DNA of 7,067 nt from IMG/VR virus record IMGVR_UViG_3300029070_000030. The stretch is one strand, 5' to 3'. The stretch is from a virus (taxonomy: Duplodnaviria; Heunggongvirae; Uroviricota; Caudoviricetes). Position 1 is the stretch's first letter. Every line of letters starts with the position of its first letter. Shown in pieces: positions 1-7,067 of the stretch. The notes beneath the pieces are model-generated. The model was not told the DNA's origin. It saw only the letters and a program-made list of their open reading frames with translations, and ran no database searches. A program made the position numbers and the translations under genes.

Positions 1-303
1 GGCGGCCGTCACTGCCGGGTCAGCCGGGGGCAGACTGCCGGTCACGGCAGCCACCTTTGCGGCCGCGTCGGACGGGGAAACACCAAACACCTTTTCAACC
101 AGTTTCAGGCCGTCACCGGCACCACACTGATTGCAGTACCAGGTGCCGCGCCCCTCCCTGTCATCAAAACGGAAGCGGTCACTCCCGCCACAGACCGGAC
201 AGGGCTGATGACGGTTTTTCAGCACCTGAATCCCCAGCGCCGGGAGAATACGCGGCCAGTGGCCGAGCGCATGGCTGACGGTGGCGGTTACGTTCATTTT
301 CAT
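1..303 (-). CDS. alpha: P4-type replication protein alpha (primase-helicase), N-terminal ~101 codons only; gene continues past the window start
   Basis: Not in the ORF track because it is truncated. Hand translation of the minus strand from ATG 303 gives MKMNVTATVSHALGHWPRILPALGIQVLKNRHQPCPVCGGSDRFRFDDREGRGTWYCNQCGAGDGLKLVEKVFGVSPSDAAAKVAAVTGSLPPADPAVTAA with no stop to position 1. AAGGAG lies 9 nt upstream of the ATG (plus 313-318). The CPVC...CNQC spacing is a zinc-ribbon of the kind found at the N-terminus of P4-type primases. It sits just downstream of the orf106-like gene, as in P4. Confidence 0.8.
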   Translation of the reverse strand, partial: MKMNVTATVSHALGHWPRILPALGIQVLKNRHQPCPVCGGSDRFRFDDREGRGTWYCNQCGAGDGLKLVEKVFGVSPSDAAAKVAAVTGSLPPADPAVTAA

Positions 304-317
304 GGTGTTGTTCTCCT

Positions 318-638
318 TCAGTGCAGTACCGGCGCTTTTATGTGACGGGCACAGAGTTCATCCATCACAACCAGCCCGAGAAAGGACAGCGACGGCGCGG
401 CCTTCAGGGGGCCGGATTCCATTAAATCTTCCAGCAGGGCACAGGCTATCTGACGCCCTTTTTCCTCACCGTGCTGGCGCAGATAAAAGCCTTCCAGCTC
501 AGCGGCGATGGCCGCCTCCAGTGACTCAAGGGTGAGATGCGGGTAGCGGTGCTGACGTTCGCACACGGTCAGCCAGGCACAGGCGACAGCGCGACGGTAA
601 AGGGCAGCGCGTAAGACGGGCGGTAAGGGTGTTTTCAT
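318..638 (-). CDS. P4 orf106-like small protein (possibly the Cnr copy-number regulator homologue; that name is from memory)
   Basis: 106-aa ORF on the minus strand; GGGAGG lies 7 nt upstream of ATG 638; position immediately upstream of alpha matches the P4 left operon; size matches P4 orf106. Confidence 0.65.
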
Positions 639-773
639 TTGTTTTCCTCCCTGTGACAGATGACTGCATTCCGTGCCGGTTGCATTAACTGATAAGGCAT
701 ATCTGCGTCTCCTGAAGACGTGCGTATCCCTGCGCGAATACGCACATTTAATTTTTCGGGTGTCGTTTTTTAA

Positions 774-1229
774 TTACAGATAATTGCGGTAACTGTTATC
801 CGGGGTGATTTCCGGGTCAGGCTCCGTGCGGGGAATTTCCCGCCATTCCCGCGCTACCGGTGCTGCCCGGCTGACCGGAACAGTGTCCTGCGGGTAAATA
901 TCCAGATATTTCTCCCGCCATTTCTGTAATTCCGGGTCTCCGGCCATTTCTTTCAGTACCGCATGCCGGTTTACGGGGCTGCGTTTAAACAGGTCAGGAC
1001 GGTCACAGGTAAATTCCCGCAGAAAACGCCCCAGCGGGATGTCTGTGGTGCGCCCGTCGGCGAGGATACGCACAAGGATACTGAATTTACGGCGGTACGG
1101 GTTCCAGACAATGTCCGGGCAGCGGTACGGCATTTCCCACGGAATACCGTCTTCCAGAATGCCGACCACGGCCACATCGGGAAAACCGGCAGAACGGTAA
1201 ATCTCACCGGGCTGGGGAAAATCAAACAT
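774..1229 (-). CDS. P4 orf151-like hypothetical protein
   Basis: 151-aa ORF on the minus strand; its ATG (1229-1227) overlaps the stop of the upstream epsilon-like ORF (ATGTTTGA), suggesting translational coupling; size and position match P4 orf151 between eps and alpha. Confidence 0.65.
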   Translation of the reverse strand: MFDFPQPGEIYRSAGFPDVAVVGILEDGIPWEMPYRCPDIVWNPYRRKFSILVRILADGRTTDIPLGRFLREFTCDRPDLFKRSPVNRHAVLKEMAGDPELQKWREKYLDIYPQDTVPVSRAAPVAREWREIPRTEPDPEITPDNSYRNYL

Positions 1230-1509
1230 GCGTCCTGTCTCCCCGGTCTTTCTGCTGGGCGAGAAAATCGCGGCACAGGCCTTTGGCTTTCAGCTCATTC
1301 AGCACAAAATCAATATCTTCATTCAGGTAGCTGAAAATATGCGGAATGTAGAGCTGATGCAGGCCGGAGAGTTCACGGTGAATCAAATCACCCCCAACAA
1401 ACTGGGATACGGCGCTGGCGCGGTTGAGCTTATGGTAAGCCTCAATGCTGAGGTGTTCACGGGCGTCATGACGCGCTGAGACGGTCTGAGGGGCTTTTTT
1501 ATTACGCAC
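1222..1509 (-). CDS. eps: Epsilon-like protein (helper-prophage derepression factor of P4 family); 95 aa if initiated at GTG 1509
   Basis: C-terminal part of the 175-aa track ORF 1222..1749. GGAGG (minus-strand sense) lies 6 nt upstream of GTG 1509, giving [30 protein letters not shown]...DRTHV (95 aa). Alternative in-frame ATGs are at 1554 and 1590. The full 1749 start is unlikely because that stretch overlaps another long ORF and is Cys/Pro/Leu-rich. Position upstream of orf151 matches P4 eps. Start codon uncertain. Confidence 0.5.
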
Positions 1510-1837
1510 GGGACACCTCCACCACCGGCAGACGGGCAGCAAGGGAGAGCACATAGTCACGGACAAGGGAACGGCGGGCGCTGCGTTCATCACCGGCGAC
1601 GGTGCGAAGCATACAGATACGGGGATGACGGTCTGCGCGACGGACAGCCGCAAACACAAAGACAAATTCAGGGTGTGAAGGGGTAAGGGTCGTAGCCATA
1701 AGGCAACCTCCGATAACAGCGTAAATGACGCTATCGCCGGAGTTTCCACGCTCGATGGCGATAGCCCAGACGGGGGTGGAAATACCGGCGTTATCGGAAA
1801 CCGGCCAGCCCGGAGGCTGCCCCGCCTGAGCTACCAT
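1502..1837 (-). CDS. Hypothetical protein upstream of eps (111 aa from ATG 1837; may extend to ATG 2101, 199 aa)
   Basis: Part of the 214-aa track ORF 1502..2146. The C-terminal 111 codons ([31 protein letters not shown]...LPVVEVSRA) look protein-like, and the stop TAA 1504-1502 abuts the eps GTG. An upstream in-frame ATGATGATG (2101-2093) overlaps the vis stop, which would give 199 aa, but that N-terminal stretch has odd composition and a lower-GC, palindrome-rich template. No recognisable motif. Low confidence. Confidence 0.3.
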
Positions 1838-2097
1838 TGACTCTGCGGTATAATGAGCGGACGCGGGCAGAATGCACGGAGTGCCATTTGCTCGACTGAC
1901 CACACACCACACCATAATCTGGCGCTCTGTGGCGTTGATTGCGACACAAAAAAAGACGCATGGCGCGTCATATGTCGCCGATAACATACTCGGGTTTCCA
2001 CGCCCGGCTGCCGATTTTGCGGCAGCGGAAAAACTATATCCGCAAATGCCGGAAAAAGGCAAGCCAGAAAAAGGGACTTTTTGCAGAACAGGCATCA

Positions 2098-2364
2098 TCA
2101 TGCGTCGTACCCCCGTTTGCGTCCGGCAATGCGCCCGGCCATCCATGCGGTGACTTCAGAGTGCAGCCAGGCTACATTTTTACCGCCAAGACTCACCTGC
2201 GGCGGAAATTCCCCCTTACGGATGAATTCGTAGATGGTCGAGCGTGACAGGCCGCACAGGTGCATCACTTCCGGCAGACGTAAAAAACGCTCCTGCGTGA
2301 TGTCCGGCAGCGGCATCAGTGGCGTCACAGGGGCGGGAGACGGGGAAGAAAAAACAGCTTGCAT
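2098..2364 (-). CDS. vis: AlpA/Vis-family phage DNA-binding regulator (88 aa), first gene of the leftward operon
   Basis: 88-aa [81 protein letters not shown]; the FLRLPEV...GLSRSTIY...G.FP....G...W core is the AlpA/Vis helix-turn-helix signature. GAGGT lies 6 nt upstream of ATG 2364. It is divergent from sid, as in P4-like satellites where alpA is a core gene. Confidence 0.8.
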
Positions 2365-2466
2365 CGGGCTACCTCGTTAATGTCCATACAGCACCGGATA
2401 AGTCCGTCCGGCTTCGGGTAGCGCTTTATTTTGTGAATATTTTCGGCAGACGCAACAGGGGGGATT

Positions 2467-2484
2467 TGTTCCGGCAGTCTTACA
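2467..2484 (-). promoter_or_regulatory. TGT-N12-ACA dyad, candidate Ogr/Delta-type activator site of a leftward late promoter (P_LL-like) upstream of vis
   Basis: TGT (2467-2469), 12 nt, ACA (2482-2484). The centre is ~110 bp upstream of the vis ATG, consistent with a site centred near -55 and a ~55-nt leader. The motif is only 6 fixed bases, so chance occurrence is possible. Confidence 0.4.
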
Positions 2485-2642
2485 ATGGCTGTGTGTTTTT
2501 TGTACATCAGCGCCAGATAGCTTTAAAACGCTCTGGAAGGAGCTGGAAAAAATTATAGTGAAATACAAATTGTTTTTTCTTATTTATTTCAGTGAATTAA
2601 TAAAAATAAAAAGTAATAAACAGCACAAAAAGCCCATCAACG

Positions 2643-2747
2643 GGTGAACAGTGGTGAACAGACGGTGAACAGTCATTACTGCGATTGTTCACCCTTTAAC
2701 TTACTGTATTACTTATCTTTTTTCTTATGGTGAACAGAGGTGAACAG
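2643..2747. repeat. Iteron cluster: five direct copies of GGTGAACAG plus one inverted TGTTCACC; P4 alpha-binding type-I iteron (TGTTCACC), ori/crr-like
   Basis: GGTGAACAG at 2643-2651, 2653-2661, 2664-2672, 2729-2737 and 2739-2747; inverted TGTTCACC at 2686-2693; embedded in an AT-rich tract (2560-2760). The octamer is the reverse complement of the P4 type-I iteron bound by alpha (from memory of the P4 literature). Confidence 0.7.
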
Positions 2748-2825
2748 TAAAATATAAAAAAACAAACAGTAAGCCGGTTTTTCCTGCGACCTTTTCCTGG
2801 CTTGCCGGTCTGAGGATGAGTCTCC

Positions 2826-2843
2826 TGTGTCAGGGCTGGCACA
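2826..2843 (+). promoter_or_regulatory. TGT-N12-ACA dyad, candidate Ogr/Delta-type activator site of the sid late promoter (P_sid-like)
   Basis: TGT (2826-2828), 12 nt, ACA (2841-2843). The centre is ~80 bp upstream of the sid ATG (2916), consistent with a -55 activator site and a short leader. P2/P4 late promoters carry this dyad (established knowledge). Confidence 0.5.
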
Positions 2844-2915
2844 TCTGCAATGCGTCGTGTTGTTGTCCGGTGTACGTCACAATTTTCTTAACCTGAAGTG
2901 ACGAGGAGCCGGAAA

Positions 2916-3650
2916 ATGTCTGACAACACCATCCCTGAATATCTGCAACCCGCGCTGGCACAACTGGAAAAGGCCAGAGCCGCCCATCTTGAGAACGCCC
3001 GCCTGATGGATGAGACCGTCACGGCCATTGAACGGGCAGAGCAGGAAAAAAATGCGCTGGCGCAGGCCGACGGAAACGACGCTGACGACTGGCGCACGGC
3101 CTTTCGTGCAGCCGGTGGTGTCCTGAGCGACGAGCTGAAACAGCGCCACATTGAGCGCGTGGCACGCCGGGAGCTGGTACAGGAATATGACAATCTGGCC
3201 GTGGTGCTGAATTTTGAACGCGAACGCCTGAAAGGGGCGTGTGACAGCACGGCCACCGCCTACCGGAAGGCACATCATCACCTTCTGAGTCTGTATGCAG
3301 AGCATGAGCTGGAACACGCCCTGAATGAAACCTGTGAGGCGCTTGTCCGGGCAATGCATCTGAGCATTCTGGTACAGGAAAATCCGCTCGCCAACACCAC
3401 CGGCCATCAGGGCTACGTCGCACCGGAAAAGGCTGTCATGCAGCAGGTGAAATCATCGCTGGAACAGAAAATAAAACAGATGCAAATCAGCCTCACCGGC
3501 GAGCCGGTTCTCCGGCTGACCGGACTGTCAGCGGCAACACTCCCGCACATGGATTATGAGGTGGCAGGCACACCGGCACAGCGCAAGGTGTGGCAGGACA
3601 AAATAGACCAGCAGGGAGCAGTGCTTAAGGCCAGAGGACTGCTGTCATGA
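2916..3650 (+). CDS. sid: Sid-like capsid size-determination (external scaffold) protein, 244 aa
   Basis: Track ORF 2898..3650; preferred start is ATG 2916 (MSDNTIPEYLQPALAQLEKARAAH...) with AGGAG 8 nt upstream, while GTG 2898 has no SD. Strongly alpha-helical, Ala/Glu/Leu/Gln-rich sequence. The 244-aa length matches P4 Sid, and the order sid-delta-psu is diagnostic. Confidence 0.8.
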   Translation: MSDNTIPEYLQPALAQLEKARAAHLENARLMDETVTAIERAEQEKNALAQADGNDADDWRTAFRAAGGVLSDELKQRHIERVARRELVQEYDNLAVVLNFERERLKGACDSTATAYRKAHHHLLSLYAEHELEHALNETCEALVRAMHLSILVQENPLANTTGHQGYVAPEKAVMQQVKSSLEQKIKQMQISLTGEPVLRLTGLSAATLPHMDYEVAGTPAQRKVWQDKIDQQGAVLKARGLLS

Positions 3651-3892
3651 TGCGCTGCCCTTTCTGTCGTCATTCAGCGCATACTCGCACCAGCCGGTAT
3701 GTGAGTGACAATGTCAAAGAAAGTTATCTGCAGTGCCAGAATATTTACTGTTCGGCGACATTTAAAACGCATGAGTCAATTTGTGCCGTGATTCGTTCTC
3801 CGGTCACGGAGGAAAAACCAGCACCGGCAAGCACAGCACCGGCTGTTGTCCGAAAAGTTAAAGGCTGTTACAGCTCACCATTTAACCATTAA
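3647..3892 (+). CDS. delta: Ogr/Delta-family zinc-finger late transcriptional activator, single-domain form (81 aa)
   Basis: MMRCPFCRHSAHTRTSRYVSDNVKESYLQCQNIYCSATFKTHESI carries the C-x2-C ... C-x4-C zinc-finger spacing and RTSRY/CQN..CSATF motifs typical of P2 Ogr and P4 Delta. Its ATG overlaps the sid stop (ATGA at 3647-3650); GAGGA lies 8 nt upstream. Confidence 0.85.
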   Translation: MMRCPFCRHSAHTRTSRYVSDNVKESYLQCQNIYCSATFKTHESICAVIRSPVTEEKPAPASTAPAVVRKVKGCYSSPFNH

Positions 3893-3906
3893 TCAGGAGA
3901 CGGGGT

Positions 3907-4479
3907 GTGACCACAATGTCATTACAGCAGGCTTTTGAGGTCTGCCAGAATAACAAAGCGGCATGGCTGCAACGCAAAAATGAGCTGGCAGCGGCCGAAC
4001 AGGAATATCTGCGGCTTCTGTCAGGAGAAGGCAGAAACGTCAGCCGCCTGGACGAATTACGCAATATTATCGAAGTCAGAAAATGGCAGGTGAATCAGGC
4101 CGCCGGTCGTTATATTCGTTCGCATGAAGCCGTTCAGCACATCAGCATCCGCGAGCGGCTGAATGATTTTATGCAGCAGCACGGCACAGCACTGGCGGCC
4201 GCACTGGCACCGGAGCTGATGGGCTACAGTGAGCTGACGACCATTGCCCGAAACTGTGCCATACAGCGTGCCACAGATGCCCTGCGTGAAGCCCTCCTGT
4301 CCTGGCTTGCGAAGGGTGAAAAAATTAATTATTCCGCACAGGATAGCGACATTTTAACGACCATCGGATTCAGGCCTGACGCGGCTTCGGTGGATGACAG
4401 CCGTGAAAAATTCACCCCTGCGCAGAACATGATTTTTTCGCGTAAAAGTGCAGAACTGGCATCACGTCAGTCTGTGTAA
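3907..4479 (+). CDS. psu: Psu-like polarity-suppression / capsid-decoration protein, 190 aa
   Basis: 190-aa ORF; GTG 3907 start with AGGAGA 6 nt upstream (the ATG at 3916 is too far from the SD). Third gene of the sid-delta-psu late operon; the length equals P4 Psu. It is followed by a hairpin and then cos. Confidence 0.85.
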   Translation: MTTMSLQQAFEVCQNNKAAWLQRKNELAAAEQEYLRLLSGEGRNVSRLDELRNIIEVRKWQVNQAAGRYIRSHEAVQHISIRERLNDFMQQHGTALAAALAPELMGYSELTTIARNCAIQRATDALREALLSWLAKGEKINYSAQDSDILTTIGFRPDAASVDDSREKFTPAQNMIFSRKSAELASRQSV

Positions 4480-4512
4480 AATTCCCCGAAAATCCGCCTG
4501 TTTTTACTGAAA

Positions 4513-4543
4513 AAAGCCATGCATCGATAAGGTGCATGGCTTT
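4513..4543 (+). terminator. Candidate intrinsic terminator of the late operon downstream of psu
   Basis: Perfect inverted repeat AGCCATGCA (4515-4523) / TGCATGGCT (4533-4541) with a 9-nt loop, extendable by A:T pairs to ~11 bp, followed by TTT and a further TTTT at 4551-4554. The U-tract is interrupted, so efficiency is uncertain. Confidence 0.4.
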
Positions 4544-4643
4544 GCATGCGTTTTCCCGCCTCATTTCCTGCAGATTACGCCGCGCCCGACGCGGCGTGAG
4601 CGTGTCAGTGCAACTGCATTAAAACCGCCCCGCAAAGCGGGCG

Positions 4644-4662
4644 GGCGAGGCGGGGAAAGCAC
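4644..4662. other. cos site: 19-nt P2/P4-type cohesive-end sequence GGCGAGGCGGGGAAAGCAC
   Basis: Exact match at 4644-4662 to the conserved 19-nt cohesive end shared by P2, 186 and P4 (recalled from the literature). It lies between psu and int, where cos sits in P4, and is flanked by GC-rich dyads (4578-4596 and ~4625-4644). Confidence 0.8.
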
Positions 4663-4687
4663 TGCGCGCGAATGGATGATTTTCAAT

Positions 4688-5644
4688 TTAAATGCCAAGC
4701 AATAATTTTTTCTTGAAGTAGCTTTCAAAGCTATCCTTATCACCATTGAATACACCCATCAACTCATCAGAGTTTATTATTATATTCATTATTTCTCTTA
4801 AATAATTATCAAGTTTAATGCTTTCCTCTGGTAGTTTTCCAACTTTAGATGATTTTAAACTGTCACCATGAGTAACTTTAGAGCGAATGTTATAGAATGA
4901 CTTTATTTCATCAAATGTAGTGATAGGATCAAAGTTATATGGTTTTAAGAAAATAGCGACCCGCTCAGAAAGTTTATGAGAAAGTTCAGAGCTATCTGTT
5001 GAGAATAAGCTCTCAAGTGCGCTGCAGTAGTGAGATATTTTCATTGCGGGATCGAAATCTCGCTTTGCTGATCTTATAAAACTCAATGCCCTTCCATAGC
5101 GAGAATATTTTGAATCAACAAAAGAATCAAAAATAGTAGAGTTATTATTATATAGGTGAGTTTGAACTCGATGGTTTATATCTGCCCACTTAGTTAAGTC
5201 ACTCCTGTTAAATTCAACATCAATATGGCGATAACCGCTTGCCATCGTAAATAAACTTAATAGACTATTGTTCGACCATTCAGAATATGCTTTGCGATCA
5301 GTTTTATTGCAATATGCAATTTCGCAAAGCATGCCATTATCCTTGATAAACCAAGAAGTATTTATAAGCATATCTATCCACAAAAGCCAAGTCGTCAATG
5401 CAAAATTGCTTTTTGTAGACGGCTGAAAAAAATCATCTTTAAGATCGGCAAAAATTATGTGATTTGCATTGTATAAATGTTCATATTCAATGATACCAGT
5501 AAAAGGCTTAATATCTTTGTTAATTATTTTTCTAATTTTTGCCCTATCTCTTATTAGAGTAACTCCGGGAAGGAGGTCAAAATCATCGAAATTATCCCCT
5601 ATAACATTCATAAATCTTAATGTTGTGTAGAATTTAAAGTGCAT
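4688..5644 (-). CDS. Hypothetical protein, 318 aa, AT-rich hotspot cargo; function unknown (candidate anti-phage defence / abortive-infection protein)
   Basis: 318-aa ORF with no internal stops in strongly AT-rich DNA that contrasts sharply with the GC-rich P4 backbone. GGAG lies 7 nt upstream of ATG 5644, and the start overlaps the last codons of int. Located between cos and int, the variable hotspot of P4-like satellites. I recognise no family; the only motif noted is a possible Rx4H (R254...H259, NIRSKVTHGD), which is weak. Confidence 0.8.
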   Translation of the reverse strand: MHFKFYTTLRFMNVIGDNFDDFDLLPGVTLIRDRAKIRKIINKDIKPFTGIIEYEHLYNANHIIFADLKDDFFQPSTKSNFALTTWLLWIDMLINTSWFIKDNGMLCEIAYCNKTDRKAYSEWSNNSLLSLFTMASGYRHIDVEFNRSDLTKWADINHRVQTHLYNNNSTIFDSFVDSKYSRYGRALSFIRSAKRDFDPAMKISHYCSALESLFSTDSSELSHKLSERVAIFLKPYNFDPITTFDEIKSFYNIRSKVTHGDSLKSSKVGKLPEESIKLDNYLREIMNIIINSDELMGVFNGDKDSFESYFKKKLLLGI

Positions 5645-6830
5645 TATATATCTCCATATTCATTTTCGGATATAATCTATCACTATACCATTGCATCATT
5701 TCTTTCCTTTTCTCTAAATATTGTGCATGGTTATATGTGCCTCGAATTGTGTTTTTATCTACATGAGCTAATTGCATTTCAATCCATACACTATTGAATC
5801 CTTTTTCATGCAAAATGGTTGACATGGTATGCCTGAACCCATGACCTGTTGCACGACCTTTGTAGCCTAATAACTCAATCACCTGTGTCACACTTTCTTT
5901 AGATATAGGTTTACTACGATTATTTCTACCTATAAAAATGTAGGGATAATGGCCGCTAATAGGCTTGAGCTGTTTAAAAAGGGCAATCACCTGAGTAGAT
6001 AGAGGTACAATATGAGGTCTGCGCATTTTCATCCTTTCAGCTGGAATCTCCCATATTCCTTTCTCAAGGTCAACTTCATCCCACGTGGCAAAGCGCATTT
6101 CCTGAGTTCTTACGCCAGTTAACATGACAATTTTTGTCGCATTTTTAGTGATGATGCTTCCGGTATACGCTTCAAGATCTTGAATAAAATAAGGCAATTC
6201 TTCGGCAGATAAAAATGGGTGGTGTTTTTGCTTAGGAACGGCCAGAGCGATAGCTAAATCAGGTGCTGGATTGTATTCAGCGCGGCCAGTGATGATCGCG
6301 TAGCGAAACACCTCTCCGCATCGTTGACGTACTTTTCTGGTTTTCTCCAACGCTCCACGTTTTTCTATGCGTTTAAGAACTTCAAGCAGTTCTAGGGGTT
6401 TAATTTCAGCTATTGGCCGTTTACCAATGAAAGGAAAAACATCCTGTTCAAATGTTTTAATAATTTCTTCGCGATAAGCTAAAGTCCAGCGATCTGCTTT
6501 TGTTGCATGCCATTCTCTGCTAACGGCCTCAAAAGAGTTTTCAGTTGATAATTTCTGAGCAATTTTCTGAGCCTTACGTTCTTCTACTGGATCAATGCCG
6601 TTTGCAACCTGTTTACGTGCCGTATCGCGTTTCTCACGTGCTTCCGCGAGGCTTACAAGATCGTAACTACCAAATGACATTAACCGCGCTTTACCGGCAA
6701 AACGAAAGCGGAATCGCCATCCCTTTGAGCCGTCTGGATTGATGAGTAATGACAAGCCTTGCCCATCATTCATTGTATATGGTTTGTCTTGTGGTTTTGC
6801 GCGTTTGATTTGTATATCGGTTAGAGCCAT
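5634..6830 (-). CDS. int: P4-type tyrosine integrase (site-specific recombinase), selC-specific
   Basis: 398-aa ORF beginning MALTDIQIKRAKPQDKPYTMNDGQGLSLLINPDGSKGWRFRFRF, the characteristic N-terminal arm-binding domain of P4-family integrases. C-terminal catalytic region has HGFRHT...LAHVDKNTIRGTYNHAQY (H-x-x-R ... H ... Y). It lies directly downstream of, and co-oriented with, a tRNA gene 3' end. Confidence 0.9.
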   Translation of the reverse strand: MALTDIQIKRAKPQDKPYTMNDGQGLSLLINPDGSKGWRFRFRFAGKARLMSFGSYDLVSLAEAREKRDTARKQVANGIDPVEERKAQKIAQKLSTENSFEAVSREWHATKADRWTLAYREEIIKTFEQDVFPFIGKRPIAEIKPLELLEVLKRIEKRGALEKTRKVRQRCGEVFRYAIITGRAEYNPAPDLAIALAVPKQKHHPFLSAEELPYFIQDLEAYTGSIITKNATKIVMLTGVRTQEMRFATWDEVDLEKGIWEIPAERMKMRRPHIVPLSTQVIALFKQLKPISGHYPYIFIGRNNRSKPISKESVTQVIELLGYKGRATGHGFRHTMSTILHEKGFNSVWIEMQLAHVDKNTIRGTYNHAQYLEKRKEMMQWYSDRLYPKMNMEIYNAL

Positions 6831-6992: not shown

Positions 6993-7067
6993 TGGCGGAA
7001 GATCACAGGAGTCGAACCTGCCCGGGACCGCTGGCGGCCCCAACTGGATTTGAAGTCCAGCCGCCTC
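6993..7067 (-). tRNA. selC: tRNA-Sec (selC), 3' 75 nt including CCA; 5' ~20 nt lie beyond the window end
   Basis: Reverse complement of 6993-7067 reads GAGGCGGCTGGACTTCAAATCCAGTTGGGGCCGCCAGCGGTCCCGGGCAGGTTCGACTCCTGTGATCTTCCGCCA, which matches my recollection of positions 21-95 of E. coli selC (anticodon loop CTTCAAATC with UCA, long variable arm, T-arm GGTTCGACTCC, 3' CCA). Confidence 0.9.

What the first reader, a model, noticed from the sequence alone, without database searches (positions are those of the whole stretch)
4644..4662. Intact P2/P4 cos 19-mer: the satellite looks packaging-competent
The exact 19-nt cohesive-end sequence GGCGAGGCGGGGAAAGCAC is present in the expected place between psu and int. 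Together with intact sid, delta and psu this suggests the element can still be packaged by a P2-like helper terminase and is not a decayed remnant, so the cargo gene is potentially mobile between hosts.
Basis: partly seen in the sequence, partly recalled or inferred. Interest (0 to 1): 0.45.

Follow-up and report, generated by a model that had tools for sequence, protein, structure and literature searches.

The report
Intact cos site of P4-like satellite
The 19-base sequence is the packaging (cos) site of a well-preserved P4-type phage satellite inserted at the selenocysteine tRNA gene of E. coli; by sequence it looks fully usable by a P2-type helper phage, but this layout is already well documented and very common.

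Summary
GGCGAGGCGGGGAAAGCAC occurs once, exactly, at 4644-4662 (+), and in none of 200 shuffles.

It lies 164 bp after the psu stop codon, as in phage P4. It sits inside the 55-bp P2/P4 cos core (4615-4669), which matches P4 at 54/55 and P2 at 53/55 positions. No base differs from both.

In 119 of 119 IMG/VR P4-like satellites with enough sequence, the 19-mer lies exactly 115 bp after a distal TGCAT-rich motif. Conservation ends 7 bp to its right (TGCGCGC), where the variable cargo hotspot starts. The window has all of these features.

The rest of the window is 96-97% P4. sid, psu, epsilon, orf88, the ori repeats and the C4 immunity RNA are intact (pooled pN/pS 0.20 against P4). delta is an intact single-domain form.

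Near-identical complete copies measure 11,956 bp between att repeats at tRNA-Sec, which is P4-sized.

So "packaging-competent" is supported by sequence, but packaging was not tested.

It is not novel. The cos-adjacent defence hotspot in P4-like satellites is published. The 55-mer is in 41% of complete E. coli genomes, and 442 genomes hold a match covering at least 80% of this window.

The parts
4644..4662 (+). 19-nt cohesive-end sequence (cos nick sites before 4644 on the top strand and after 4662 on the bottom strand)
   Evidence: Exact and unique, 0/200 shuffles. Identical to P4 bases 1-19 and to P2 cosL. The 5'-protruding 19-nt ends are stated in PMC3931495.
4615..4669 (+). [quoted passage not shown]
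   Evidence: 54/55 to P4, 53/55 to P2, 0 positions differing from both. P2-like prophage matches in E. coli start at about 4597-4615 and end at 4669. The 55-bp figure is quoted from the literature (PMC9594776, PMC3931495).
4663..4669 (+). TGCGCGC, the right-hand limit of the conserved cos region; the variable hotspot starts at 4670
   Evidence: Mean information is 1.92 bits here and 0.21 bits at +8..+20 across 108 unique satellite sequences. The same break is seen in six satellites from other genera.
4625..4644 (.). Imperfect GC hairpin abutting the left nick; on the - strand it is followed by a T-run (terminator-like)
   Evidence: Terminator-like hit on the - strand. Lies inside the conserved core.
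4512..4556 (+). Distal conserved block: an 11-bp perfect hairpin (4513-4523 / 4533-4543) with T-tract, carrying TGCAT at 4520, 4533 and 4543 (-124, -111, -101 from the nick)
   Evidence: Inverted repeat I1. Mean information 1.75 bits. Same TGCAT offsets in P4, P2, STYP1, RCIP0057 and MDG94-186. Spacing to the 19-mer is invariant at 115 bp in 119/119 satellites.
4577..4597 (+). GC-rich 8-bp hairpin (ACGCCGCG/CGCGGCGT), a rare sequence variant of a hairpin that most satellites keep at this place
   Evidence: Inverted repeat I4. The only cluster of differences from P4. The variant occurs in 2 of 118 sequences with dG -12.2; 80 of 108 unique satellites fold at or below -5 kcal/mol here.
4609..4619 (+). 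TGCAACTGCAT, the proximal TGCAW pair at -35 and -29
3907..4479 (+). psu (polarity suppression / capsid decoration protein)
   Evidence: Pfam Psu E=1.7e-88. 95% identical to P4 Psu.
3647..3892 (+). delta, single-domain Ogr/Delta zinc-finger activator of helper late genes (81 aa; P4 has a 166-aa tandem form)
   Evidence: Pfam Ogr_Delta E=1.4e-18. 51% identical to the N-terminal half of P4 delta.
2916..3650 (+). sid (capsid size determination scaffold)
   Evidence: 244 aa, 99% identical to P4 Sid.
2643..2746 (.). P4 ori type-1 repeats (6 x TGTTCACC)
   Evidence: 6 matches against 0.21 expected, with the same order and spacing as P4 9310-9413.
1754..1841 (-). C4/CI-type immunity RNA (its targets isrK and c4-a1b1 lie at 1949-2039)
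   Evidence: Rfam RF01695 77.9 bits, RF01394 74.7 bits, RF03163 51.5 bits.
4688..5644 (-). Cargo gene in the cos-adjacent hotspot: 318-aa Apea-like HEPN protein; its stop codon is 26 bp from the 19-mer
   Evidence: ORF. RefSeq name 'HEPN domain-containing protein'. Homologues are named Apea-like HEPN. No Pfam, PADLOC or NCBIfam hit. Homologues at 72-73% identity also sit next to int in other P4-like satellites.
5634..6830 (-). Tyrosine integrase (398 aa), overlapping the cargo ORF by 11 nt
   Evidence: Pfam Arm-DNA-bind_3, Phage_int_M and Phage_integrase.
6997..7067 (-). 3' part of tRNA-Sec (selC), the attachment site; cut off by the window end
   Evidence: Rfam tRNA-Sec 51.5 bits. ARAGORN and RefSeq annotation in L001. 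att direct repeat 11,956 bp apart in L001.

Best explanation
Bases 4644-4662 are the cohesive-end sequence of the cos site of an intact P4-family satellite integrated at selC (tRNA-Sec).

The expected course of events is as follows. A P2-type helper infects the cell or is induced. The satellite excises (int plus orf88/AlpA) and replicates as a circle (alpha, ori, crr). It switches on helper late genes (delta, epsilon) and shrinks the helper capsid (Sid, Psu). The helper terminase then recognises the cos region on the circular monomer. It makes staggered nicks before 4644 (top strand) and after 4662 (bottom strand), and packages a linear DNA of about 12 kb with 19-nt 5' overhangs. The cargo gene lies immediately inside the left end of that DNA.

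Shown here: the sequence, position, spacing and family-wide conservation of every recognisable cos element, and the integrity of the neighbouring hijacking genes.

Inferred: recognition, cutting and packaging. Also inferred is that the TGCAT array at -124/-111/-101/-35/-29 is the terminase-binding part of the site.
For: - The 19-mer is exact and unique.
- The 55-bp core has 1 mismatch to P4, 2 to P2 and none to both.
- 344 bp to the left are 95% identical to the right end of P4, and window 1-4643 is 96.9% identical to P4.
- The distance from the psu stop to cos is the same as in P4.
- The 19-mer lies exactly 115 bp after the distal motif in 119/119 IMG/VR satellites, without a single indel.
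- Conservation is high across 4512-4669 and vanishes after +7.
- The TGCAT offsets are shared with P2, STYP1, RCIP0057 and MDG94-186.
- Sid is 99% and Psu 95% identical to P4, and delta is intact.
- Pooled pN/pS against P4 is 0.20 over six genes.
- The ori repeats are 6 of 6, and the C4 immunity RNA and its targets are present.
- Full copies that are 99.0-99.7% identical to the window carry a full-length alpha gene (both), and one (L001) measures 11,956 bp between att repeats, against 11,624 bp for P4.
- Precedent: phiR73, a P4-like element at selC, gives infectious virions with P2 (PMC6868368, citing Inouye 1991 and Sun 1991).
- The small capsid holds about 12 kb (PMC9122126).
Against: - No experimental evidence of cutting or packaging exists for this element.
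- The window stops inside alpha and inside tRNA-Sec. The integrity and size of the rest are therefore known only from relatives that are 99.0-99.7% identical (L001, L036).
- In those relatives the crr/alpha-3' region is duplicated around a second cargo gene (TIR-reverse transcriptase). The effect on replication is unknown.
- The GC hairpin at 4577-4597 is a rare variant that departs from the family consensus at four well-conserved positions.
- Every satellite examined retains a cos-like site, so the presence of cos does not by itself separate active from inactive copies.
- The reference strain WY517-2 shows no second cos-bearing element, so no resident helper is evident there.
Confidence: 0.82

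Rival explanations
1. The element is a cryptic, domesticated P4-like prophage. The cos sequence survives only because the element is young or hitch-hikes with a useful defence gene, and it is no longer mobilised.
For: - A match covering at least 80% of the window sits in 442 complete E. coli genomes; the six copies read (L001, L036; H71, H72, H74, H75) are all beside tRNA-Sec, which could reflect vertical inheritance.
- No helper-like cos is seen in strain WY517-2.
- The cargo and a second cargo gene (TIR-reverse transcriptase) could be what selection keeps.
Against: - All ten reading frames in the window are open.
- The hijacking genes show pN/pS of 0.20 against P4, which indicates purifying selection on functions that only matter for mobilisation.
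- Intergenic cos elements are conserved base for base and without indels, whereas DNA 8 bp further on is unconserved.
- ori and the immunity RNA are intact.
- The size is P4-like.
Confidence: 0.1
2. The conserved block mainly serves other roles: transcription termination for psu and for the leftward int-cargo operon, and a recombination junction for swapping cargo. Packaging would be secondary or lost.
For: - The hairpin with T-tract at 4513-4556 follows psu.
- The hairpin plus T-run on the - strand at 4644-4621 is the first terminator-like signal after the cargo stop codon.
- Homology between elements breaks exactly at +7.
- The literature proposes that cos is linked to hotspot diversification (PMC9122126, PMC8628076).
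Against: - These roles do not explain an exact 19-mer identical to the helper's cohesive end.
- They do not explain the invariant 115-bp spacing.
- They do not explain the same TGCAT offsets in P2-like phages, whose flanking genes are different.
- The roles are compatible with packaging rather than alternatives to it.
Confidence: 0.06
3. The 19-mer is a chance match or an assembly artefact.
For: None.
Against: - 0 of 200 shuffles gave a match.
- The surrounding 4.6 kb is P4.
- The same 55-mer is found in 2,239 complete E. coli genomes.
Confidence: 0

Closest known systems
Satellite phage P4 (NC_001609 / X51522) cos site
   Same: - Identical 19-mer.
- Identical 29 bp to its left.
- Same 164-bp distance from the psu stop.
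- Same TGCAT offsets.
- 95% identity over 344 bp of left flank.
- Same gene order psu - cos - accessory genes - int.

   Different: - The base after the 19-mer is T (as in P2 and most satellites), not C.
- The GC hairpin at 4577-4597 has a different sequence and register.
- The accessory genes gop/beta/cII are replaced by one Apea-like HEPN gene.
- The integrase and attachment site differ (selC). P4's own site is a leucine tRNA gene, which is my recollection and was not tested here.
- delta is single-domain.

Phage P2 (NC_001895) and P2-like helpers: cos site
   Same: - Identical 19-mer.
- 53/55 in the core.
- TGCGCGC on the right.
- TGCAT at -111, -101 and -29.

   Different: - Outside the core and the TGCAT motifs the flanks are unrelated.
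- P2 has no GC hairpin at -67..-47.
- The two core differences lie in the loop of the hairpin next to the nick.

Retronphage phiR73 (P4-like satellite at selC)
   Same: It is integrated in the selenocysteine tRNA gene and is P4-like. It carries a defence-type cargo, and a P2 helper gives infectious particles that lysogenise at selC (PMC6868368). A single-domain delta in phiR73 is my recollection and was not tested here.
   Different: The cargo at the cos hotspot here is a HEPN gene. The reverse transcriptase gene in the full-length relatives lies downstream of alpha, not at the cos hotspot.
cos-adjacent defence hotspot of P4-like satellites (Rousset et al. 2022; de Sousa & Rocha 2021)
   Same: A variable gene set lies between psu/cos and int, directly next to the cos signal and in either orientation. 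HEPN-domain proteins are listed among the hotspot contents (PMC9122126).
   Different: None in architecture. Whether this particular HEPN gene defends against phage is untested, and it had no PADLOC hit.

Membership tests
P2/P4-type cos site | 19-nt cohesive-end sequence GGCGAGGCGGGGAAAGCAC (or a close variant) | tested here: met
   Exact match at 4644-4662. Identical to P4 1-19 and to P2 cosL.
P2/P4-type cos site | 55-bp core conserved between P2 and P4 around the cohesive ends | tested here: met
   Window 4615-4669: 54/55 to P4, 53/55 to P2, no base novel to both. P2-like prophage matches end at 4669.
P2/P4-type cos site | Flanking sequence beyond the core as found in functional sites | tested here: met
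   TGCAT at -124/-111/-101/-35/-29 as in P4 and the P2-like helpers. The 115-bp spacing is invariant in 119/119 satellites. The window agrees with the family consensus at all strongly conserved positions except four in the GC hairpin.
P2/P4-type cos site | Cut by P2-type terminase to give 19-nt 5' overhangs, and supports packaging | not testable with these tools
   Needs an in vivo transduction assay or an in vitro ter assay.
P4-like satellite | Core genes int, psu, delta, sid, alpA (orf88), epsilon and alpha in conserved order | tested here: met
   int, psu and delta by Pfam. sid 99% to P4. orf88 and epsilon have the same length as in P4 with 2 and 1 amino-acid changes. Only the last 303 nt of alpha are in the window, but alpha is full-length in the 99.7% relative L001.
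P4-like satellite | No capsid, tail or terminase genes of its own; size near 10-12 kb, fitting the small capsid | tested here: met
   No structural genes are annotated in L001. att repeats are 11,956 bp apart. This was measured on a relative, not on the window's own genome.
P4-like satellite | P4-type replication origin and RNA-based immunity | tested here: met
   Six of six ori type-1 repeats. C4 RNA, isrK and c4-a1b1 found by Rfam.
phiR73-type (selC-integrating) satellites | Integration into the 3' end of tRNA-Sec | tested here: met
   tRNA-Sec at 6997-7067. att repeat containing the tRNA 3' end in L001.
phiR73-type (selC-integrating) satellites | Sequence similarity to phiR73 itself | not tested
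   No phiR73 record surfaced in the phage collection, and the original papers are not held.

The most novel reading that the evidence does not exclude
The working recognition signal for P2-type terminases may not be the 19-mer itself. It may instead be a phased array of TGCAT motifs (-124, -111, -101, -35, -29) together with the TGCGCGC just right of the cut. The array is held at an invariant distance from the nick in helpers and satellites alike, whereas the overhang sequence drifts (14 variants among the 120 sequences examined; more diverged still in L135 and L136). If so, the published 55-bp core understates the site. Satellite-helper compatibility would then be set by the array rather than by the cohesive ends.
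Probability: 0.35. Interest if true: 0.35.

Novelty: already known. Interest (0 to 1): 0.12.

Why it matters
The result confirms that the HEPN cargo gene rides on a satellite that has, by sequence, everything needed to be packaged by P2-type phages. The gene is therefore plausibly transferable between enterobacterial hosts. This is the standard picture for defence genes in P4-like satellites and adds no new principle. The survey made along the way could guide mutational mapping of the P2 terminase recognition site and the design of P2/P4 cosmids. It showed the invariant 115-bp spacing, the TGCAT array shared with helpers, and the sharp right-hand limit at +7.

Tried and rejected
- **Primary papers not held.** The paper on cos requirements (Ziermann & Calendar 1990) and the phiR73 sequence paper (Sun et al. 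1991) are not in the library. The 55-bp core and the phiR73 mobilisation are therefore cited second-hand (PMC9594776, PMC3931495, PMC6868368). My recollection of a roughly 125-bp minimal fragment was not used as evidence.
- **Thin genome scan.** A scan of genome contigs with Psu returned only 6 loci. The family survey was instead built from a DNA-pattern scan of IMG/VR.
- **Cargo protein.** Pfam, PADLOC and NCBIfam gave no hit for it. Its HEPN (Apea-like) label rests on names given to homologues and on RefSeq annotation.
- **Second cargo gene.** Rfam found no retron or other RNA next to the TIR-reverse transcriptase gene of the full-length relative.
- **Recombination within cos.** I considered that the T after the 19-mer (P2-like, unlike P4) marks helper-satellite recombination within cos. 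I rejected this because T is the consensus among satellites and P4 is the outlier.
- **TGCAT enrichment.** TGCAT is not enriched over the whole window (26 found, 25 expected). Only the local cluster and its conservation are meaningful.
- **First script.** It failed because of file naming and was rerun.

Full report
**1. The observation**

The sequence GGCGAGGCGGGGAAAGCAC is present exactly once, at 4644-4662 on the + strand. No other site matches even with three mismatches, and none of 200 dinucleotide-preserving shuffles produced a match.

One detail needs correcting. The site lies between psu (3907-4479, +) and a 318-aa cargo gene (4688-5644, -). The integrase gene (5634-6830, -) comes after the cargo gene, followed by the 3' part of tRNA-Sec (6997-7067, -).

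**2. What the window is**

Window 1-4643 is 96.9% identical to phage P4 bases 6667-11624. It ends exactly at the right end of P4, and 4644-4672 continues into P4 bases 1-29.

The window therefore carries these P4 parts:
- the 3' end of alpha, orf106, orf151, epsilon and orf88;
- the immunity region, with the C4-type RNA at 1754-1841 and its isrK and c4-a1b1 targets;
- the ori, with all six TGTTCACC repeats in P4's order and spacing;
- sid (99% identical protein);
- a single-domain delta of 81 aa (Pfam Ogr_Delta; 51% identical to the first half of P4's 166-aa delta);
- psu (95% identical protein).

To the right of cos, P4's gop/beta/cII genes are replaced by one gene whose homologues are named Apea-like HEPN. 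It has no Pfam, PADLOC or NCBIfam hit.

**3. The whole element in close relatives**

The best complete-genome match is E. coli WY517-2 (99.7% identical, locus L001). There the element sits at selC. A direct repeat of the tRNA-Sec 3' end lies 11,956 bp away, against 11,624 bp for P4.

An IMG/VR contig (L036) is the same element at 99% identity. In all, 442 complete E. coli genomes hold a match covering at least 80% of the window.

**4. The cos region compared with functional sites**

I anchored the comparison on the 19-mer.
- The 29 bp to the left are identical to P4.
- The 7 bp to the right (TGCGCGC) are identical to P2; P4 has CGCGCGC.
- Over the 55-bp block 4615-4669 the window has 1 mismatch to P4 and 2 to P2. 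At no position does it differ from both.

This block matches the "55-bp cos region" that the literature attributes to Ziermann & Calendar 1990 (quoted in PMC9594776 and PMC3931495). It also reappears empirically. In complete E. coli genomes, P2-like prophages match the window from about 4597-4615 up to 4669, whereas P4-like elements match the whole 173-nt query.

Further left, 157 of 170 bases are identical to P4. Ten of the 13 differences cluster in 4573-4597.

**5. A family survey**

A pattern scan of IMG/VR with the distal motif AAGGTGCATGGNTTTGCATGC returned 120 loci, mostly contigs of 10-14 kb.

- **Spacing.** In 119 of the 119 loci with enough sequence, a 19-mer of the cos type starts exactly 115 bp after the motif start, as in the window (4529 to 4644). 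There is not one indel in this intergenic stretch.
- **19-mer types.** The exact P2-type 19-mer accounts for 47 of the 120 sequences with a 19-mer (119 loci plus the window). The next most common are GGCGTGGCGGGGAGAGCAT (42) and GGCGGGGCGGGGAGAGCAT (14).
- **Conservation by segment.** Over 108 unique sequences, mean information was as follows:

| Segment | Window coordinates | Mean information (bits) |
|---|---|---|
| Distal block | 4512-4556 | 1.75 |
| Core, left of the nick | 4615-4643 | 1.64 |
| 19-mer | 4644-4662 | 1.79 |
| Right boundary (TGCGCGC) | 4663-4669 | 1.92 |
| +8 to +20 | 4670-4682 | 0.21 |

The conserved cos region therefore ends 7 bp right of the 19-mer, where the variable hotspot begins. 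The same break appears in six satellites from Enterobacter, Tatumella, Kluyvera, Citrobacter and Photorhabdus.

The window matches the consensus at every strongly conserved position except four, all inside the hairpin at 4577-4597.

**6. Motifs shared with helper phages**

TGCAT (or TGCAA) occurs at -124, -111, -101, -35 and -29 relative to the nick in the window and in P4. The helpers compare as follows:
- P2 has TGCAT at -123, -111, -101 and -29.
- STYP1, RCIP0057 and MDG94-186 have it at -124, -111 and -101. The last two also have it at -29.
- pro147 has it at -121, -111 and -29.

TGCAT is not enriched over the whole window (26 found, 25 expected). The signal is the local, phased and conserved array.

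More diverged satellites carrying HEPN homologues (L135, L136) keep the TGCAT blocks and the TGCGCGC, while their 19-mers have drifted further. I infer, but have not shown, that this array is the terminase-binding part of the site. It fits the report that longer cos flanks raised P2 cosmid transduction by several orders of magnitude (PMC9594776).

**7. The one divergent patch**

At 4577-4597 the window has a perfect 8-bp GC hairpin (ACGCCGCG/CGCGGCGT). P4 and the family consensus have a different GC hairpin a few bases to the left.

The window's version is rare (2 of 118 sequences) but folds strongly (-12.2 kcal/mol). Of the 108 unique satellite sequences, 80 fold at or below -5 kcal/mol here. 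P2 has no such hairpin, so sequence-specific recognition of this patch by the P2 terminase is unlikely. I treat it as a tolerated variant, with residual uncertainty.

**8. Is the element decayed?**

- All reading frames in the window are open.
- Across orf106, orf151, epsilon, orf88, sid and psu there are 27 synonymous and 17 non-synonymous differences from P4. That gives pS 0.043, pN 0.009 and a ratio of 0.20.
- These genes serve only the satellite life cycle, so this argues for continued selection on mobilisation.
- Together with the intact ori, immunity RNA, integrase and P4-like size, the element reads as active rather than as a remnant.

**9. Mechanism**

Established knowledge of P2/P4 (PMC9122126, PMC6893505, PMC8628076) gives the following. 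The helper terminase packages the satellite through the shared cos signal. Sid and Psu redirect the capsid to the small form, which holds about 12 kb.

Applied here, cutting would occur before 4644 on the top strand and after 4662 on the bottom strand. That would give 19-nt 5' overhangs (PMC3931495). The HEPN gene would start 26 bp inside the left end.

A direct precedent is phiR73, a P4-like element at selC that yields infectious, selC-lysogenising particles with P2 (PMC6868368).

All steps after the sequence comparison are inferred.

**10. Rivals**

- **Domesticated, immobile prophage.** This cannot be excluded without experiment. The selection signal and the indel-free conservation of non-coding cos elements argue against it.
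- **Terminator or recombination junction.** A role for the conserved block as a transcription terminator or as a recombination junction (PMC9122126, PMC8628076) is compatible with packaging. Neither role explains the exact helper-type overhang or the phased motifs shared with helpers.
- **Chance.** This is excluded.

**11. Novelty and verdict**

The cos-adjacent hotspot between psu and int is described, with HEPN proteins among its contents (PMC9122126). P4-like satellites are reported in about 44% of E. coli isolates (PMC9122126, citing de Sousa & Rocha). The 55-mer of this window occurs in 2,239 of 5,426 complete E. coli genomes.

Homologues of the cargo gene at 72-73% identity also lie next to int in P4-like satellites elsewhere. 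This fits the view that the gene family travels with these elements.

The only mildly new material is the survey: the invariant spacing, the TGCAT array shared with helpers, and the sharp +7 boundary. Its functional meaning remains to be tested.

Noticed in passing
L001 3185-3669 and 5802-6367 (outside the window; window = L001 8001-15068): In the full-length relatives, the crr repeat plus the 3' end of alpha is duplicated (88-94% identity). The two copies flank a 543-aa gene annotated 'TIR domain-containing anti-phage reverse transcriptase'. This looks like a second cargo site downstream of alpha. It raises the element from about 9.3 kb to 11,956 bp, close to P4 size. Rfam found no retron RNA beside it.
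   Followed up: partly
window 4529-4644; IMG/VR loci L015-L134: The distance from the distal TGCAT-rich motif to the 19-mer is exactly 115 bp in 119/119 P4-like satellites, with no indels. The TGCAT offsets (-111, -101, -29) are the same in P2-like helper phages.
   Followed up: yes
IMG/VR loci L015-L134; L010-L014; L135; L136: The cohesive-end 19-mer comes in discrete types among satellites: P2-type 47, GGCGTGGCGGGGAGAGCAT 42, GGCGGGGCGGGGAGAGCAT 14, and others rarer. L135 and L136 are more diverged still, while TGCGCGC and the TGCAT blocks persist. The types may track different helper lineages.
   Followed up: partly
window 4577-4597: The GC hairpin between the psu terminator and the cos core is kept as a structure in most satellites, but its sequence and register vary. 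The window carries a rare, very stable variant. Its function is unknown.
   Followed up: partly
window 5634-5644 and 4621-4690: The integrase and HEPN reading frames overlap by 11 nt, which suggests one leftward operon. There is no hairpin between the HEPN stop (4688) and cos. The first terminator-like signal on the - strand is the hairpin plus T-run at 4644-4621, inside the cos core, so transcripts probably run across the 19-mer.
   Followed up: no
window 3647-3892: delta is a single Ogr/Delta unit of 81 aa, whereas P4's is a 166-aa tandem form. This region is the only P4 backbone segment replaced left of cos: window 3770-3921 has no P4 match.
   Followed up: partly
L136 6957-7242: A P4-like satellite from a Logan assembly carries a 72%-identical HEPN homologue next to int but has no psu gene. 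A diverged cos-like site with TGCAT blocks and TGCGCGC lies directly between the cargo gene and delta.
   Followed up: no
L009 (URND01000141.1): A 6.8-kb contig labelled 'uncultured Clostridiales bacterium' carries a P4-like psu (95% identical) and an exact P2-type cos. It is most likely an enterobacterial contig mis-binned into that metagenome-assembled genome.
   Followed up: no
window 3907-3917: The psu frame opens with GTG at 3907 (VTTMSLQQ), whereas P4 has MESTALQQ. RefSeq starts the protein at the internal ATG (187 aa). The true start is not settled.
   Followed up: no
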